DNA of 64,000 nucleotides, from contig CAIKXY010000005.1 in assembly GCA_903831595.1 (NCBI GenBank), positions 839 through 64,838 of the forward strand, written 5' to 3'. The notes beneath the pieces were generated by a model, which saw only the letters and a list, made by a program, of their open reading frames with translations, made no database searches and was not told where the DNA came from. This document shows positions 2,544-6,494 of this stretch, in pieces. Both the position numbers and the translations under genes were made by a program. How positions within the stretch are numbered: position 1 is the first letter of the stretch; every line of letters begins with the position of its first letter. The DNA comes from an uncultured bacterium (lineage in GTDB: Bacteria; Patescibacteriota; Minisyncoccia; Phycocordibacterales; GWA1-40-21).

Positions 2544-2573
2544 TTGACAATATACCCCCAGGGGGTATTATAT
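2544..2573 (+). promoter_or_regulatory. Sigma70-like promoter with embedded CsoR-type operator palindrome
   Basis: TTGACA (2544-2549), then the perfect 17-nt palindrome ATACCCCCAGGGGGTAT (2552-2568), overlapping a TATTAT/TATACA -10-like hexamer just before the csoR ATG at 2578. Matches the ATACCnnnnGGGGTAT type of CsoR operator described in Firmicutes. Confidence 0.5.
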
Positions 2574-2577
2574 ACAT

Positions 2578-2841
2578 ATGAAACAAACAAAACAAACATT
2601 GATAAGAAGGTTAAAAATCATTGAAGGACAAATAAGAGGATTACAAGATATGCTCTATAAAGATTCATATTGTATCGATGTTATCACCCAAACCTCCGCC
2701 GTAAAAAATGCTCTTTCAGGAATAGAGGATGCGCTTATGGAAAATCATTTAAGTACTTGTGTTATTCATCAAATAAAAAAAGGTAAGGAAAATACAGCGA
2801 TAGAAGAAATTTTAAAAGTATATCGCACAAAAAGAAAATAA
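2578..2841 (+). CDS. csoR: Copper-sensing transcriptional repressor, CsoR/RcnR (DUF156) family
   Basis: 87 aa; LKIIEGQIRGLQDMLYKDSYCIDVITQTSAVKNALSGIEDALMENHLSTC is family-typical, with the Cys...His...Cys (C32/H57/C61) ligand pattern of Cu(I)-sensing CsoR. Confidence 0.7.
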   Translation: MKQTKQTLIRRLKIIEGQIRGLQDMLYKDSYCIDVITQTSAVKNALSGIEDALMENHLSTCVIHQIKKGKENTAIEEILKVYRTKRK

Positions 2842-2842
2842 T

Positions 2843-3448
2843 ATGAAGGAAAATAACAAATGTTGTGTTGAAACAAAATCTAATAAGGGAAACGGCTTAT
2901 TGTCGGGCATTTTGTATGGACTTCTACCACATTCTTTTTGTTTGGCTTTTGCATTCTTTTCAGTTATAGGAGCTATTACAGCAACAGCATTTCTAAAAAA
3001 CGTTTTACTGATTCCAAACATCTTTTTGTATCTTGTTATAATTTCTTTGATTTTAGCTACAGTATCAATATATTTTTATTTACAAAAAACTGATTGTTTG
3101 TGCAAAAGTGGAATTAAAAGTAAATGGAAATATATATCTACTATATATACATCAACAATTATTATTAATCTGGTATTTTTTTATGGTGTGATTCCAATGC
3201 TAGCAAATATAAATTCAAAGACGCAGCTTTCACAAAAGGGATTATCTGAAGTTTCACTAAAAGTAAATATTCCTTGTACTGGGCATTCATTTTTGATCAT
3301 ACAAGAGCTTAGAAAATGTGCTGGTGTAGATGATGTAACGTTTAATGTCCCAAATGTTTTTGATGTTACATATAATAAAAATAATACTTCACCACAGAAA
3401 ATTGCTGCAGCAGAAATTTTTAAAACTTATCCGGTGACAATACAATAA
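2843..3448 (+). CDS. Cys-rich 3-TM membrane protein with C-terminal ferredoxin-like (HMA-like) soluble domain; putative metal transport/handling protein
   Basis: N-terminal CC pair (NKCCVE), a CLC pair in a loop (TDCLCKSG), three predicted TM helices, then a ~90-aa C-terminal domain (VSLKVNIPCTGHSF...ELRKCAGVDDVTFNV...) reminiscent of MerP/CopZ folds. Start overlaps the csoR stop, so it is co-transcribed. Confidence 0.4.
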   Translation: MKENNKCCVETKSNKGNGLLSGILYGLLPHSFCLAFAFFSVIGAITATAFLKNVLLIPNIFLYLVIISLILATVSIYFYLQKTDCLCKSGIKSKWKYISTIYTSTIIINLVFFYGVIPMLANINSKTQLSQKGLSEVSLKVNIPCTGHSFLIIQELRKCAGVDDVTFNVPNVFDVTYNKNNTSPQKIAAAEIFKTYPVTIQ

Positions 3449-3487
3449 AATTAAAGGTCGAATTTAATAAATATTAAACACAAAACA

Positions 3488-3622
3488 ATGGCCGAAGAAA
3501 AAAAGAATAATACATGTAAGTGTCCATGCGATTGCAAATGTGAAGGAAAATGCGAATGTAAATGTGATTGTAAGGAATGTGCATGCAAAGAAAAATGTGA
3601 TCGTGATTGCGGATGCAAATAA
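3488..3622 (+). CDS. Metallothionein-like Cys-rich peptide (44 aa, 15 Cys), not in the ORF track
   Basis: Manual translation: MAEEKKNNTCKCPCDCKCEGKCECKCDCKECACKEKCDRDCGCK*. Consists of Cys-X-Cys repeats. It lies 40 nt after the membrane protein and is followed by a strong terminator. The antisense track ORF 3451..3648 is its shadow. Confidence 0.5.
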   Translation: MAEEKKNNTCKCPCDCKCEGKCECKCDCKECACKEKCDRDCGCK

Positions 3623-3633
3623 TAGGGGAGTAA

Positions 3634-3668
3634 CAAAAAAATCATCAAGCGCTTGATGATTTTTTTAA
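3634..3668. terminator. Bidirectional intrinsic terminator
   Basis: aaaaaaatcatcaagcgcttgatgattttttt: perfect 10-bp stem flanked by A- and T-runs. Serves the + strand metal operon and the - strand nitroreductase gene. Confidence 0.55.
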
Positions 3669-3686
3669 TTGTTTATAAATGAGATT

Positions 3687-4301
3687 TTATCTAAAATCAA
3701 ATAAATCTTTTTCACTAAAGCGAATTTTTGGTGATTTTATGTGAGTATCATTGTCACTTCTATATCCTATTGCTAAACAAAATTTTGGTTCTAGATTTTT
3801 TGGTAAATTTAATACCTTTTTATAATTCTTCGGTTCAAATCCTTCTATTGGGCAAGAATCAACTTTAAGTTCGGCACAAGCAGCCAAAGCAAATCCTAAA
3901 GCTATGTACGCCTGTTTTGCAGACCATTCAGATCCCATTTCTTTTACAAATTTATTAAACTCTTTACGATAGTCATATTCTGGGTCGTTAGTAATTTCTG
4001 TTAGTTTAGCCTCTTCAGCTAATCTCAAAAAATCATCCACTCTTTTTTTAGTGTCTAAATCTGCACTAAAAACTAAAAGATGTGAGCAGGTATCAATCTG
4101 GTCCTGGTTCCAAGCGTATGGTTTCAAAGTTTTTTTGAGTTCCACATTTTCAACAACAGTAATATGATATGGCTGAACACCAAATGCGCTTGGTGTCATG
4201 CGAATTGCCGTTAATATTTTTTCAAAAGTATCAGCGTCTATCTTTTTATCGTTGAACTCTTTTGTAGCATATCTCCAATTTAAATTTTCTATAAAACTCA
4301 T
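3687..4301 (-). CDS. NAD(P)H nitroreductase family protein
   Basis: WRYATKEF, SCPIEGF and overall nitroreductase-fold pattern; 204 aa. Confidence 0.75.
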   Translation of the reverse strand: MSFIENLNWRYATKEFNDKKIDADTFEKILTAIRMTPSAFGVQPYHITVVENVELKKTLKPYAWNQDQIDTCSHLLVFSADLDTKKRVDDFLRLAEEAKLTEITNDPEYDYRKEFNKFVKEMGSEWSAKQAYIALGFALAACAELKVDSCPIEGFEPKNYKKVLNLPKNLEPKFCLAIGYRSDNDTHIKSPKIRFSEKDLFDFR

Positions 4302-4353
4302 GTTTTGATTATAACAAAAAAGTAGTTATGAAAGAAGTTTGTTTTTAATTTTG

Positions 4354-4759
4354 TGGAGATGGGCGGAATCGAACCGCCGTGCAAATGATTGTTTCAAATA
4401 TTTCTACAAAGTCTAGTTGATTTATTTTACCTTGCGGTAATTTAAGATTATAAACTATAAATTAACAAAACATTTATAATCCGATTCTCTTATTTCATTT
4501 TGTGGCGAGAAAACACAAAATATATTCTGAAATTATTGCACTTCAACACCATCGCTCAGAATCAGTGGGTGAAATGTCGCTTAAGCTAAAGCGTAAGCGA
4601 AAGTAAGGTCTTTGACTCCAAAAAATGGAGAAACAATGCCAGCTACTTTTGATGAAATGTTTTTAGCATTTACATTTTCCTTGGTAGATTTAAGAGTTCA
4701 CAAGGTTGCTCTACTTTGCATACAAGAGACTTGACCAATTGTCTAGGCCGATCATCCCC
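4354..4759 (-). ncRNA. ssrA: tmRNA (transfer-messenger RNA)
   Basis: Reverse strand. 5' GGGGATG... pairs with 3' ...GGCGGTTCGATTCCGCCCATCTCCA (canonical T-arm GGTTCGATTCC and acceptor). An internal frame GCT AAA AAC ATT TCA TCA AAA GTA GCT GGC ATT GTT TCT CCA TTT TTT GGA GTC AAA GAC CTT ACT TTC GCT TAC GCT TTA GCT TAA encodes the tag AKNISSKVAGIVSPFFGVKDLTFAYALA*. It lies immediately downstream of smpB. Confidence 0.65.
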
Positions 4760-4760
4760 A

Positions 4761-5207
4761 TTATTCGTTTTTCAACGTCCTATTAATTTCTCTGTCAGAT
4801 TCACGTTTTTTTATTGTTTCGCGTTTATCTGACTTTCTTTTTCCTTTTGCAAGACCAAGTTCTACCTTAATCTTGTGGCCCATATTATACACTGAAAGTG
4901 CCACTATTGTCAAACCGTTTTGATTTTCTTTTCCTGACAAATATCGAAGTTCTTTTTTAGTAAGTAAAAGTTTTCTATTTCTCCTTTCATCATAATCTTT
5001 TGGGGTATTTTTGGGCTGTAGAGAAGTGACGGATGAACCAATTAAAAAAGCTTCTCCTCCGCGAATAACTACATAAGAACCATCAAGTGTCATTTGCCCA
5101 GCTTTAATTGCTTTCACTTCAAATCCTAGCAGTTCAATACCAGCCGTGATTTTTTCAAGGATTTCATAATTGAAATATGCTTTTCTATTTTCTGCGAATT
5201 TGGACAT
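4761..5207 (-). CDS. smpB: SsrA-binding protein SmpB
   Basis: 148 aa; KAYFNYEILEKITAGIELLGFEVKAIKAG...LLLTKKELRYL... is a typical SmpB. Confidence 0.85.
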   Translation of the reverse strand: MSKFAENRKAYFNYEILEKITAGIELLGFEVKAIKAGQMTLDGSYVVIRGGEAFLIGSSVTSLQPKNTPKDYDERRNRKLLLTKKELRYLSGKENQNGLTIVALSVYNMGHKIKVELGLAKGKRKSDKRETIKKRESDREINRTLKNE

Positions 5208-5247
5208 CGTGGTTTAATCTTAACAGAATAGTGGGGAATTGAGAAAT

Positions 5248-5282
5248 AAAAAAAGCGCCAACCTTGCGGTCGGCGCTTAAAG
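5248..5282 (-). terminator. Intrinsic terminator after the GC-rich lipoprotein gene
   Basis: aagcgccaaccttgcggtcggcgctt stem flanked by A/T runs, between the 5307 stop and the smpB start. Confidence 0.4.
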
Positions 5283-5306
5283 ATTTTATACAGTTCTCTA
5301 ACTGTT

Positions 5307-5840
5307 TTAATCTACCGGTAATTTGAAGGGTGAGGTCACTATTCTCGGTTCAATATAAACCGGCAGTACTTTTTTCCCCTTCGGGTCCTTCATCAGAACC
5401 CACGTTCCTTCAGCTGCAGCGGGGGAGAACAGACCATTTGGGTCCGCCTGGGCTATAACATAGTACCCCTGCGAGCTCCGCCATTCGAGCTTCTGCGGAT
5501 TCGTATACTGTGTAGCATACGGAATCCCGTAGCCGATGGTTTCACCCAAATATGTAAGTTTACCCCCGAGTGATGTCCGCCCAGATATTACTGTAGGGTT
5601 CATATTCTCTAGATACGTATAAGTAACTAGAGCATCTTGGTCCCTCAGTTCCAGAATGTCTTTCAGAATTTTTCTTTCTCTGAAGTTCTTGATTGAAGGC
5701 ATGCCGGTTTGTGCCGTTCCTTCCGCCAGCTGCTTTTCTTGCTGTTCTTTCTGTATGTCGTCGCTGGACTTTTGAAAGTCGCAGCCGCTTATAGCAAACA
5801 TAGCTACAAGCATAATTATAATCGTGGTAAACTTTTTCAT
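5307..5840 (-). CDS. Lipoprotein of unknown function (signal peptide plus lipobox AISGC)
   Basis: 177 aa, MKKFTTIIIMLVAMFAISGC... Distinctly higher GC than the neighbouring genes. Confidence 0.5.
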   Translation of the reverse strand: MKKFTTIIIMLVAMFAISGCDFQKSSDDIQKEQQEKQLAEGTAQTGMPSIKNFRERKILKDILELRDQDALVTYTYLENMNPTVISGRTSLGGKLTYLGETIGYGIPYATQYTNPQKLEWRSSQGYYVIAQADPNGLFSPAAAEGTWVLMKDPKGKKVLPVYIEPRIVTSPFKLPVD

Positions 5841-6223
5841 TTTGCCTCCTTTTGGCCAAATGGTATGCTGCTGGTCCTTTCACTCCTCAATTGAAGAATG
5901 AATGACCTGAGATCAGACGGCATCTTGTTTACATCATAATCTGCAGCTCTGTGCAGAATTATTGATGCAAGAGCGTCCTTATGCTCCGGCGCGGCTTTGA
6001 TGTATTCGAACTGCATATTCTGCAGTTCTTGGACCATGCCCTGGTTGTAGGACTTGGTCTGTTCAAAAACCTGCCTTCTTACTCCTTCCTGTGCCGGTGC
6101 AAACACCTTGTACAGGAAGAATTCGTTGCCGGTGGCAATCCATGTCATCGCTAGTACTAAAATAACTAAAGCGACAAACACTTTCACTACATTCTTTACA
6201 GCCTTTTTTTCTTCTGCATCCAT
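5837..6223 (-). CDS. N-terminally membrane-anchored protein of unknown function
   Basis: 128 aa with one TM (VFVALVILVLAMTWIA). Overlaps the lipoprotein gene start by 4 nt, so the two are translationally coupled. Also GC-rich. Confidence 0.45.
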   Translation of the reverse strand: MDAEEKKAVKNVVKVFVALVILVLAMTWIATGNEFFLYKVFAPAQEGVRRQVFEQTKSYNQGMVQELQNMQFEYIKAAPEHKDALASIILHRAADYDVNKMPSDLRSFILQLRSERTSSIPFGQKEAK

Positions 6224-6494
6224 TTTTTTATCCTCCTGCCCGATTGGGCTACTTTCTCAAATAACTTTCGCCTGCCATTATATACCATATTATCAATTTT
6301 GTCAAGTATTTTTTAAAACTATGTTTCGCTTCTTTTAAATATGATAAATAAGTGTTATATTACATTTCTATGGATCCCGTTAGAGATAGGGAATCTCTGA
6401 TTTCCGTCTAGTAAACTGGATTAAAAAGTTAAGCAGTAATTAATGTAATAATTCAGATTAAGGTTCAATACATAACACTTTAATCTCTAACCGG

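What the first reader, a model, noticed from the sequence alone, without database searches (positions are those of the whole stretch)
3488..3622. Unannotated 44-aa Cys-X-Cys metallothionein-like ORF (34% Cys) absent from the ORF track
Manual translation gives MAEEKKNNTCKCPCDCKCEGKCECKCDCKECACKEKCDRDCGCK*. It has 15 Cys, arranged almost entirely as C-X-C with K/E/D spacers, like eukaryotic metallothionein beta-domains rather than known bacterial SmtA/MymT. It has an RBS-distance ATG and a terminator immediately downstream, and it shares a strand and operon with csoR. The six-frame track only reports its antisense shadow (3451..3648, -). Peptides like this are routinely missed by length cut-offs.
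Basis: seen in the sequence. Interest (0 to 1): 0.7.

Follow-up and report, generated by a model that had tools for sequence, protein, structure and literature searches.

The report
Copper-regulated metallothionein-like gene in Patescibacteria
A 44-residue, one-third-cysteine peptide gene is real and conserved in many ultra-small (CPR/Patescibacteria) bacteria; it is the last gene of a copper-sensor operon, in the slot where related lineages carry a copper-export pump, so it is most likely a new family of bacterial copper-binding metallothionein.

Summary
The ORF at 3488-3622 (+) exists and translates as reported, but it has 14 Cys (31.8 %), not 15, and no Shine-Dalgarno site; this genome rarely uses them. 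It is not a chance ORF. 74 distinct loci from Patescibacteria MAGs and metagenomes carry a 26-61-aa Cys-rich ORF (about 31 % Cys, CxC spacing, virtually no aromatic residues or His). In each it follows the same membrane-protein gene on the same strand, and a terminator follows it. dN/dS is 0.0-0.38. The operon is: promoter with a palindromic CsoR operator, Cu(I)-type csoR, a 3-TM protein with an HMA-fold domain, the Cys-rich ORF, then the terminator. In 54 sister loci (other CPR groups, DPANN archaea) a CPC-type CopA copper ATPase occupies the slot of the Cys-rich ORF. No Pfam, NCBIfam, PDB or literature match was found. Best reading: a CsoR-derepressed Cu(I)-thionein that sequesters copper. 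That makes it a new, sequence-unrelated bacterial metallothionein family. Metal binding and expression are untested. A conserved non-coding motif, AAAGGTCGAA, precedes the ORF and is unexplained.

The parts
2544..2571 (+). Sigma-70-type promoter, TTGACA (2544-2549) - 16 nt - TATTAT (2566-2571). Its -10 box ends 6 nt before the csoR ATG, so the mRNA is leaderless or nearly so.
   Evidence: Promoter scan gives 11 of 12 matches; sequence read. The TSS is inferred, not shown.
2552..2568 (.). CsoR-type operator, the perfect palindrome ATACCCCC-A-GGGGGTAT. It lies in the promoter spacer and overlaps the -10 box.
   Evidence: Sequence. ACCC..GGGT palindromes lie upstream of csoR in 33 of 107 loci by a strict regex. 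The 15 other loci printed each carry a TACCT..AGGT(A/G)-type palindrome just after the -10. Binding is inferred from knowledge of G/C-tract CsoR/RicR operators.
2578..2841 (+). csoR: an 87-aa Cu(I)-sensing repressor of the CsoR/RcnR family with the ligand triad C32/H57/C61.
   Evidence: PF02583, 87.9 bits. Best PDB matches are Cu-CsoRs 4M1P, 4ADZ and 2HH7, with C/H/C aligned to Mtb C36/H61/C65. All 99 distinct regulators in related loci keep C..H...C.
2843..3448 (+). The 'anchor': a 201-aa membrane protein with three TM helices and a C-terminal HMA-fold domain. Conserved residues are C7C8, H30, C33, C85xC87 and C145xGH148. It has no Pfam family.
3453..3462 (+). Conserved non-coding motif AAAGGTCGAA between the anchor stop codon and the Cys-rich ORF. 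Function unknown.
   Evidence: Present in 54 of 72 distinct loci, plus about 12 one-base variants, and only where a Cys-ORF follows. 44 of 61 AAGGTCGA occurrences in 879 kb sit directly upstream of a Cys-ORF. It is unique in the window. No Rfam match.
3488..3622 (+). Metallothionein-like gene: 44 aa, 14 Cys, almost all in C-x-C register with K/E/D spacers, and an internal 12-nt (CxCx) periodicity at 3526-3573.
   Evidence: TRF period 12 x 4. Conservation. Selection.
3635..3666 (.). Intrinsic-terminator hairpin A7-TCATCAA-GCGC-TTGATGA-T7. It is symmetric, so it can serve as a bidirectional terminator shared with the convergent nitroreductase gene (3687-4301, -).
   Evidence: Fold dG -12.9 kcal/mol, z -3.37. 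A hairpin plus T-run lies after 70 of 71 homologous ORFs.

Best explanation
The ORF is a genuine protein-coding gene for a cytoplasmic, metallothionein-type peptide. It is the last cistron of a three-gene, copper-responsive operon: csoR, a membrane HMA protein, then the MT-like gene.

Proposed mechanism:
1. At low Cu(I), CsoR sits on the palindrome ATACCCCC-A-GGGGGTAT, which overlaps the promoter, and blocks transcription.
2. When cytosolic Cu(I) rises, it binds the C32/H57/C61 site. CsoR leaves the DNA and a (near) leaderless tricistronic mRNA is made, ending at the hairpin after the small ORF.
3. The peptide is translated without an SD site, as most genes of this genome are. Its 14 thiolates wrap Cu(I) into Cu-thiolate clusters (roughly 8-10 Cu(I) by analogy with known Cu-thioneins), buffering and sequestering copper.
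4. The 3-TM/HMA protein, with conserved Cys/His on both faces and within TM1, passes Cu(I) to or from the peptide.

In sister lineages the same csoR-anchor module drives a CopA Cu(I)-export ATPase. In this Parcubacteria-type lineage the 135-bp sink gene occupies the pump's position.

Shown here: the gene is real and under purifying selection; the operon order; the Cu-type sensor residues; the operator palindrome; the HMA fold; the MT/CopA alternation.
Inferred: Cu(I) binding, stoichiometry, induction, direction of transfer, and topology.
For: The gene is real.
- 73 distinct Cys-rich ORFs of 26-61 aa lie downstream of the anchor gene on the same strand. The anchor there is only 43-81 % identical to the window's.
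- Nearly invariant Cys columns and the consensus M..K.C.CG..C.C.CGC...K.C.CGP.C.CGC.K.
- dN/dS is 0.0-0.38 in 17 ungapped pairs (3 more were dS-saturated). Differences by codon position are 95/57/215.
- Window against its closest relative: dN 0.09, dS 1.23.
- Both Cys codons are used: TGT 367, TGC 549.
- The antisense shadow frame is interrupted in 14 of 73 relatives.
- A terminator follows 70 of 71 ORFs.

MT character.
- The family is 31.4 % Cys, rich in K/G/E/D/N, with Y 0.1 %, H 0.2 % and no F or W.

Copper link.
- The regulator's best matches are structurally characterised Cu(I)-CsoRs, with the C/H/C ligands aligned.
- The triad is kept in all 99 regulators.
- A GC palindrome sits in the promoter.
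- The anchor has an HMA fold like CopZ, MerP and ATP7B metal-binding domains.
- Of 150 distinct loci, 74 have the MT-like ORF after the anchor and 54 have a P1B ATPase there instead. Three of these were Pfam-confirmed, and 47 of 48 carry the CPC motif.
- Only 4 switches between the two states occur on the anchor tree.

Precedent. M. tuberculosis MymT is a small, originally unannotated Cu(I) metallothionein (PMC7558416).
Against: - There is no experimental or omics evidence here for transcription, translation or metal binding.
- No significant sequence similarity to any known MT exists. The MT assignment therefore rests on composition, Cys pattern and context.
- Metal specificity is inferred from the regulator and from CopA in sister loci. 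CxC-rich peptides also bind Zn, Cd, Hg and Ag.
- The window peptide has lost one otherwise conserved Cys (R39).
- Whether MT-bearing genomes lack CopA elsewhere is unknown; only about +/-3 kb per locus was examined. One MT locus (L087) has a divergent P1B-like ATPase.
- The anchor's topology comes only from the positive-inside rule. It places the HMA domain outside the cell, which complicates a simple chaperone-to-MT hand-off.
- dN/dS cannot by itself exclude the antisense frame whose wobble positions coincide with the sense frame.
Confidence: 0.72

Rival explanations
1. It is a real Cys-rich peptide, but its main role is not copper storage. It might bind another thiophilic metal (Zn, Cd, Hg, Ag), or act as a thiol/redox or (per)sulfide buffer that happens to sit under CsoR-family control.
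For: The composition is compatible with Zn/Cd-thioneins. CsoR-family members also sense Ni/Co, formaldehyde or persulfide (RcnR and FrmR hits). The anchor resembles MerP/MerT logic. Several sister loci carry an ArsP_1 permease instead of CopA.
Against: The regulator carries the Cu(I)-type C-H-C triad in all 99 variants and matches Cu-CsoR structures best. The alternative occupant of the slot is overwhelmingly a CPC-type (Cu(I)) ATPase.
Confidence: 0.13
2. It is a transient Cu(I) shuttle or adaptor for the membrane HMA protein rather than a sink. For example, it could feed copper to the anchor for passive export, or receive copper imported by a MerT/MerP-like relay.
For: The anchor gene and the ORF are strictly adjacent in 74 loci. 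The anchor has conserved cytoplasmic CC and CxC motifs, His/Cys within TM1 and an HMA domain. In CopA loci the anchor overlaps copA, like a chaperone gene.
Against: 14 to 21 Cys per peptide is far more than a one-site chaperone needs. No energy-coupling module for export is present. Repeat expansion of CxCx units (26-61 aa) fits selection for capacity.
Confidence: 0.1
3. It is a precursor of a secreted or modified peptide (a RiPP or bacteriocin-like product).
For: Small size. One member gives a meaningless E = 7.2 hit to a bacteriocin-precursor model.
Against: No maturase, protease or ABC exporter is conserved nearby; flanks outside the three genes differ between loci. There is no leader/core organisation and no signal peptide. 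The conserved partners are a copper sensor and a metal-binding membrane protein.
Confidence: 0.03
4. It is not a gene: a chance ORF in a TG-rich tandem repeat, or the real gene is the 65-aa antisense ORF 3451-3648 (-).
For: TRF finds a 12-nt period inside it. Antisense frames are mostly open because Cys/Lys/Glu/Gly codons have no stop-forming complements. The shadow frame shares wobble positions with the sense frame.
Against: Chance P is about 7e-12. The ATG, stop, length class and Cys columns are conserved over deep divergence. The antisense frame has stops in 14 of 73 relatives and would have to start inside the terminator hairpin. Operon and terminator context are conserved.
Confidence: 0.02

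Closest known systems
MymT, the Cu(I) metallothionein of Mycobacterium tuberculosis (RicR/CsoR-family regulon)
   Same: It is a small Cys-rich cytoplasmic peptide originally missed by annotation, induced by copper and needed for Cu resistance (PMC7558416). From my own knowledge, it is controlled by RicR, a CsoR-family repressor. The window regulator's best NCBIfam hit is the RicR model, but far below its cut-off (71 vs 175 bits).
   Different: No sequence relationship was detected: no NCBIfam, Pfam or PDB hit. The CPR peptides have about 31 % Cys in a regular CxC register and no His. They are the last cistron of the sensor's own operon and are always paired with a 3-TM/HMA protein. They occur in Patescibacteria, not actinobacteria.
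Eukaryotic CxC-type (copper) metallothioneins: fungal Cu-MTs such as Neurospora CuMT and yeast Cup1, the mammalian MT beta-domain, and Drosophila MtnA (Pfam PF02067)
   Same: About 30 % Cys, dominant C-x-C spacing with G/K/S/D/E spacers, no aromatic residues or His, length 25-60 aa. 10 of 71 family members give weak hits to PF02067 (best E 0.032).
   Different: The hits are below every curated threshold, and the window peptide hits nothing, so this is convergence of pattern, not demonstrable homology. The regulation is bacterial (a CsoR operator, not Ace1/MTF-1). The resemblance to named fungal and mammalian sequences is recalled from memory, not tested.
SmtA/BmtA bacterial metallothioneins (Pfam PF02069) and Pseudomonas pseudothioneins
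   Same: They are bacterial, small, Cys-containing metal-buffering proteins under a metal-sensing repressor.
   Different: Canonical bacterial MTs are about 60 aa with about 16 % Cys (PMC13578184). From my own knowledge, SmtA/BmtA have a zinc-finger-like fold with His ligands and aromatic residues, mainly handle Zn/Cd and are controlled by SmtB. No HMM match was found here.
csoR-copZ-copA and copY-cupA-copA copper-efflux operons (Bacillus, Streptococcus)
   Same: The operon logic is the same: a copper-sensing repressor, then an HMA-type or membrane-anchored copper-binding accessory protein, then the effector. 54 sister loci here literally read anchor-copA, 20 of them with a detected csoR upstream.
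   Different: In the window the effector is a 44-aa thiolate sink instead of an ATP-driven pump. The accessory protein is an integral 3-TM protein with CxGH instead of MxCxxC.
Csp1/Csp3 copper storage proteins
   Same: They have the functional role proposed here: high-capacity Cys-thiolate Cu(I) storage in bacteria (PMC7558416).
   Different: Csps are pre-folded four-helix-bundle tetramers of about 120 aa. The CPR peptide is a short, probably metal-folded chain.

Membership tests
Metallothionein (operational superfamily definition) | Low molecular mass (<10 kDa) | tested here: met
   44 aa in the window; homologues are 26-61 aa.
Metallothionein (operational superfamily definition) | High Cys content (about 15-35 %) arranged in CxC / CxxC / CC motifs | tested here: met
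   14 of 44 residues (31.8 %); family mean 31.4 %; almost all in CxC register.
Metallothionein (operational superfamily definition) | Few or no aromatic residues and His | tested here: met
   None in the window peptide. In the family, Y is 0.1 %, H 0.2 %, and there is no F or W.
Metallothionein (operational superfamily definition) | Binds several metal ions in metal-thiolate clusters | not testable with these tools
   This needs peptide chemistry (ESI-MS, UV/CD, luminescence).
Metallothionein (operational superfamily definition) | Metal-responsive expression | not testable with these tools
   Only indirect evidence: same operon as a Cu(I)-type CsoR, with a palindromic operator in the promoter.
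Bacterial MT, SmtA/BmtA (Pfam PF02069 Metallothio_Pro) | Match to the family HMM; zinc-finger-like core with His ligands | tested here: not met
   No hit at E<=1 for the window peptide, nor at E<=10 for any of 71 members. The peptide has no His.
Eukaryotic MT Pfam families (PF00131, PF02067, PF01439, PF05522 and others) | Score above the gathering threshold | tested here: not met
   Window peptide: 0 families. Best in the family is E 0.032 for PF02067 (10 of 71 members) and for PF05522 (1 member); both are sub-threshold.
MymT-type mycobacterial MT | Sequence similarity to MymT | not tested
   I held no verified MymT sequence. No NCBIfam model of any kind matched the peptides, and there was no PDB hit.
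Cu(I)-sensing CsoR (CsoR/RcnR family, PF02583), for the regulator gene | HMM match, the x-C-H-C ligand set, and a GC-rich palindromic operator | tested here: met
   87.9 bits against a cut-off of 22.8. C32/H57/C61 align with the ligands of 2HH7, 4M1P and 4ADZ. Palindrome at 2552-2568.
HMA domain (PF00403), for the C-terminal domain of the anchor protein | Ferredoxin-like beta-alpha-beta-beta-alpha-beta fold | tested here: met
HMA domain (PF00403), for the C-terminal domain of the anchor protein | HMM match and the canonical MxCxxC metal site | tested here: not met
   The window protein gives no Pfam hit; 13 of 66 relatives hit HMA. The motif is an invariant C145-x-G-H148 instead.
RiPP precursor peptide | Conserved adjacent maturation or export genes | tested here: not met
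   Flanking genes outside csoR-anchor-ORF are not conserved and are housekeeping genes.

The most novel reading that the evidence does not exclude
A large branch of Patescibacteria (Parcubacteria/Paceibacteria type) has swapped the roughly 2.2-kb ATP-driven CopA exporter of an ancestral csoR-anchor-copA operon for a roughly 0.13-kb eukaryote-like Cu-thionein gene. The result would be a pump-free, sequestration-only copper defence suited to minimal genomes. In this reading the conserved 3-TM/HMA protein works as a MerT/MerP-like thiol relay that hands Cu(I) across the membrane to the high-affinity cytoplasmic sink. A dedicated cis-element (AAAGGTCGAA, in some lineages with a hairpin whose loop is ACGUCGCGAAA) would tune expression of the small cistron.
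Probability: 0.3. Interest if true: 0.8.

Novelty: new variant of a known kind. Interest (0 to 1): 0.62.

Why it matters
Characterised bacterial metallothioneins are few: SmtA/BmtA, MymT and the pseudothioneins (PMC13578184, PMC7558416). None has the Cys density or CxC regularity of eukaryotic MTs.

This finding adds a widespread, sequence-unrelated family in the Candidate Phyla Radiation, a group whose stress physiology is almost unknown. It also gives that family a clear regulatory and genomic context.

The alternation with CopA at one operon position is a natural experiment on how genome-reduced cells handle copper, by sink or by pump.

The peptides are short enough to synthesise, so the hypothesis can be tested directly without culturing the organisms.

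Gene callers missed several 36-40-aa members. This is a concrete case of functional small genes lost to length cut-offs.

Tried and rejected
Searches with no result:
- Word-indexed protein search with the peptide: no candidates. With the 71-sequence profile: 4170 candidates, none at E<=0.01.
- The exact peptide is not in the 15-billion-protein collection.
- Exhaustive phmmer against 1.84 billion representatives: 0 hits. Short, compositionally biased queries are penalised, so these negatives are weak.
- Pfam, NCBIfam and PDB sequence searches gave no significant hit for the peptide or its profile.
- Rfam found nothing in the intergenic region.
- The afdb50 fold library was not available.
- The TM part of the anchor matched no Pfam family, MerT included, and no solved fold.
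- Six literature searches found no report of metallothioneins in Patescibacteria/CPR.

Ideas considered and rejected:
- SD-dependent initiation: 0 of 73 ORFs have an SD.
- A sigma-70 promoter in the 39-nt spacer: the spacing of the candidate hexamers is wrong (my own reading).
- AAAGGTCGAA as a general signal: it occurs once in 64 kb.
- Read-through fusion of the anchor with the ORF: they are in frame in the window, but two stops intervene and spacer lengths in relatives are not multiples of 3.
- A CsoR operator in the long spacers: 0 of 24.
- A Cys-codon leader or attenuator: nothing lies downstream but a terminator.
- A RiPP precursor: no conserved enzymes.
- Codon-position bias as proof against the antisense ORF: the shadow frame shares wobble positions, so I relied on stops, start/stop conservation and context instead.

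Full report
**1. The observation**

The peptide has 14 cysteines (31.8 %), not 15. Position 39 is Arg (CGT) where the nearest relatives have Cys.

It is the most Cys-rich of the 462 six-frame ORFs of at least 30 aa in the window. The next has 17 % and the mean is 2.7 %. From base composition, the chance of 14 or more Cys codons in 43 is about 7e-12. Tandem Repeats Finder sees a 12-nt period (CxCx units) at 3526-3573, the kind of internal duplication common in metallothioneins.

There is no Shine-Dalgarno-like site 6-16 nt upstream, so the 'RBS-distance ATG' is not confirmed. This is the norm for the genome: only 4 of 55 long ORFs have one.

A 14-bp hairpin flanked by A7 and T7 follows at 3635-3666 (dG -12.9 kcal/mol, z -3.4). 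It also faces the convergent nitroreductase gene at 3687-4301 (-). The consensus scan missed the hairpin because it has too few G-C pairs.

The same contig occurs in three public assemblies, including the MAG GCA_903954215.1. Their gene callers did call the 44-aa gene, and the DNA is identical.

**2. Is it a gene?**

The peptide is too short and too biased for the protein databases. The word-indexed search, the exact look-up and the exhaustive phmmer all returned nothing. I therefore used the upstream 201-aa membrane protein as an anchor. It has 67 homologues. Scanning metagenome and GTDB genome contigs with their alignment gave 160 loci.

A six-frame scan found a Cys-rich ORF immediately downstream of the anchor gene, on the same strand, in every close locus with enough sequence. 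There are 73 distinct peptides of 26-61 aa, 8-210 nt after the anchor stop. They share:
- an N-terminal M-x-(E/D)-K-K;
- nearly invariant Cys columns;
- the consensus C.CG..C.C.CGC...K.C.CGP.C.CGC.K.

Family composition is 31.4 % Cys, then K, G, E, D and N, with essentially no aromatic residues or His.

Evidence for purifying selection:
- In 17 ungapped pairs dN/dS is 0.0-0.38 (3 more pairs were saturated at synonymous sites), and differences fall 95/57/215 on codon positions 1/2/3.
- The window against its closest relative gives dN 0.09 and dS 1.23.
- Both Cys codons are used freely (367 TGT, 549 TGC), so it is the amino acid, not the DNA word, that is conserved.

The antisense 'shadow' ORF shares wobble positions with the sense frame, so codon-position bias alone cannot exclude it. 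However, that frame carries stops in 14 of 73 relatives. In the window it would have to start inside the terminator hairpin.

The only broken sense frame is in L055, with a frameshift in an A7 run. A hairpin plus T-run follows 70 of 71 ORFs. The gene is real.

**3. Context**

Upstream lies TTGACA-16-TATTAT (11 of 12 matches). The perfect palindrome ATACCCCC-A-GGGGGTAT (2552-2568) sits in the spacer and overlaps the -10 box. The csoR ATG is 6 nt after the -10, which implies a (near) leaderless mRNA.

The regulator is a CsoR/RcnR-family protein (PF02583, 87.9 bits). Its best solved relatives are Cu(I)-CsoRs from Geobacillus, Streptomyces and M. tuberculosis. C32, H57 and C61 align with the copper ligands. 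All 99 distinct regulators in the related loci keep C...H...C, and comparable GC palindromes flank their promoters.

Conserved residues in the anchor are C7C8 (95 %), H30 and C33 (invariant), C85xC87 (about 80 %), and C145xGH148 (C and H invariant). The K/R-rich N-terminus and TM2-TM3 loop suggest that the CC and CxC motifs face the cytoplasm and the HMA domain faces outward. This topology is inference only. The layout recalls MerT plus MerP, but the MerT HMM does not match.

Genes outside the trio differ from locus to locus, and no peptide-maturation genes are present.

**4. The telling comparison**

Where the anchor gene is not followed by the Cys-rich ORF, it is followed by a P1B-type ATPase, often with a 4-nt overlap. 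These loci come from Microgenomates, WWE3, other CPR groups, DPANN archaea and Methanofastidiosa. The ATPase has an N-terminal HMA domain, and three examples were Pfam-confirmed. 47 of 48 carry the CPC motif of Cu(I) exporters.

Counts over 150 distinct loci:

| Gene after the anchor | Loci |
|---|---|
| MT-like ORF | 74 |
| CopA-like ATPase | 54 |
| Other (some an ArsP_1 permease) | 13 |
| Too short to tell | 9 |

On a neighbour-joining tree of the anchor, the two states switch only four times over 139 leaves. The small ORF therefore occupies the position of a copper pump in an otherwise conserved copper operon. I regard this as the strongest functional evidence available without experiments.

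**5. Mechanism proposed**

- Copper-free CsoR occludes the promoter.
- Cu(I) binding releases it.
- The tricistronic mRNA ends at the hairpin after the small ORF.
- The peptide folds around Cu(I) as thiolate clusters and buffers or sequesters it.
- The anchor relays Cu(I) to or from the peptide.

The stoichiometry (about 8-10 Cu) is an analogy from known Cu-thioneins, not a result.

Rivals are scored in the report sections: another metal or a thiol buffer, a shuttle rather than a sink, a RiPP precursor, or not a gene at all.

**6. Comparison with what is known**

- The peptides meet the operational criteria of metallothioneins that can be tested in silico: size, Cys content and pattern, and lack of aromatic residues and His.
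- They match no curated MT family. There is nothing for the window peptide, and at best E 0.03 to the dipteran family PF02067 in 10 of 71 members. The only PDB matches are meaningless (E about 3.6).
- They differ from canonical bacterial MTs, which are about 60 aa with about 16 % Cys (PMC13578184).
- The closest functional analogue is MymT, a small, initially unannotated Cu(I) MT (PMC7558416).
- Six full-text searches found no report of metallothioneins in Patescibacteria.

I therefore rate this as a new variant of a known kind: a new MT family in a new operon context, not a member of any existing sequence family.

**7. Unexplained**

A non-coding motif, AAAGGTCGAA (window 3453-3462), lies just after the anchor stop and 25-35 nt (or more) before the small ORF.
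- It is present in 54 of 72 loci, plus about 12 one-base variants, and only where the ORF is present.
- 44 of 61 AAGGTCGA occurrences in 879 kb are at this position. The rest are at chance level.
- It occurs once in the window.
- It is often followed by TTATTAA.

Some lineages insert a hairpin there with the conserved loop ACGUCGCGAAA, and 4 of its 12 pairs show compensatory changes. It matches no Rfam family.

It may be a processing site, a protein-binding site or a translation enhancer for the SD-less small cistron. I could not decide between these.

**8. Verdict**

Metal binding and expression remain to be shown. Interest 0.62.

Noticed in passing
window 3453-3462 (and 3464-3478); the same position in L005, L010, L015, L037, L041, L084 and others: A conserved non-coding motif, AAAGGTCGAA, usually followed by TTATTAA or a short AT hairpin, lies between the anchor stop codon and the Cys-rich ORF. 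It is specific to loci that have the ORF, unique in the window, and has no Rfam match. Function unknown.
   Followed up: partly
L018 about 3640-3690, and L021, L022, L025, L047, L095, L097, L020, L033, L091 (spacer between anchor and Cys-ORF): Long-form spacers carry an inserted hairpin (stem TAATAGTTTT / AAAACTATTA) with a conserved 11-nt loop, ACGTCGCGAAA. 4 of 12 pairs show compensatory changes. This may be a structured RNA element upstream of the small ORF.
   Followed up: partly
L053, L063-L065, L068, L071, L079, L108, L112, L114-L121 and others, immediately after the anchor gene: In CPR lineages other than the Parcubacteria type, and in DPANN and Methanofastidiosa archaea, the anchor gene is followed by a CPC-type CopA ATPase, often with a 4-nt overlap. 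In a few loci (L076, L101, L134) an ArsP_1 permease with an N-terminal CC(H)H motif follows instead.
   Followed up: yes
L055 1713-1840: This is the only homologue with a broken frame. The ATG is out of frame with the Cys-rich part because of a length change in an A7 run near the N-terminus. It could be a sequencing error, a pseudogene or slippage. Poly-A runs are common at the 5' end of these ORFs, including A7 in the window at 3497-3503.
   Followed up: partly
L032 135-257 (+), L061 1150-1269 (+), L026/L089 1867-2001 (-): Additional Cys-rich small ORFs of a second type lie upstream of csoR in some loci. An example is MADEKKCSCGCDYDCECGCGCNKDGCKCTPECECKHHEEE, with a C-terminal His pair. They are preceded by TTTGAC(C/T)GGTT and followed by terminators.
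   Followed up: no
window 2578-2841, compared with the regulators of L007-L113: The CsoR of the window, L004 and L005 belongs to a different subclade (30-45 % identity to the others). Its operator lies inside the promoter spacer. The other MT loci use a regulator with an ATACCTACCCCCCAGGTAT-type operator just downstream of the -10. The regulator therefore seems to have been exchanged while the rest of the operon stayed.
   Followed up: partly
window, whole (55 long ORFs); for example 42399, 47343, 4301(-), 2578: The genome is SD-poor: 4 of 55 long ORFs have an SD-like site. Several genes have a TATAAT-like box ending 5-8 nt before the ATG, which suggests widespread leaderless or very short-leader mRNAs.
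   Followed up: partly
L166 about 4646-4768 and L168 between 4612 and 4985: Public gene calls skipped the 36-40-aa MT-like ORFs in these assemblies, while 44-45-aa ones (L001, L164) were called. Annotation of this family is inconsistent and depends on length.
   Followed up: yes
window 5200-6300: A GC-rich patch (43-47 % against about 31 % background) covers two minus-strand genes: 5307-5840, a lipoprotein-like 177 aa, and 5837-6223, 128 aa. It may have been horizontally acquired.
   Followed up: no
window 4351-4759 (-) and 4761-5207 (-): The tmRNA gene (Rfam 100 bits) lies directly next to smpB, two genes downstream of the finding.
   Followed up: no
L087 676-2529 (-): One MT-type locus has a 617-aa P-type ATPase on the opposite strand upstream of csoR. 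It lacks an N-terminal HMA domain and has SCA in place of the CPC motif. Its metal specificity is unclear.
   Followed up: no
L063 3324-3479, L103 about 1127-1285, L071 3600-3812, L080: Small CxxC-containing ORFs sit between the anchor and copA in some loci. One type is 52 aa (MKRKIYSCPICGLKYKEKKWAKKCEEWCKKHKSCNLE...). Another is a 66-71-aa protein; the L071 copy gives a sub-threshold match to DUF1858 (25 bits against a cut-off of 32).
   Followed up: no
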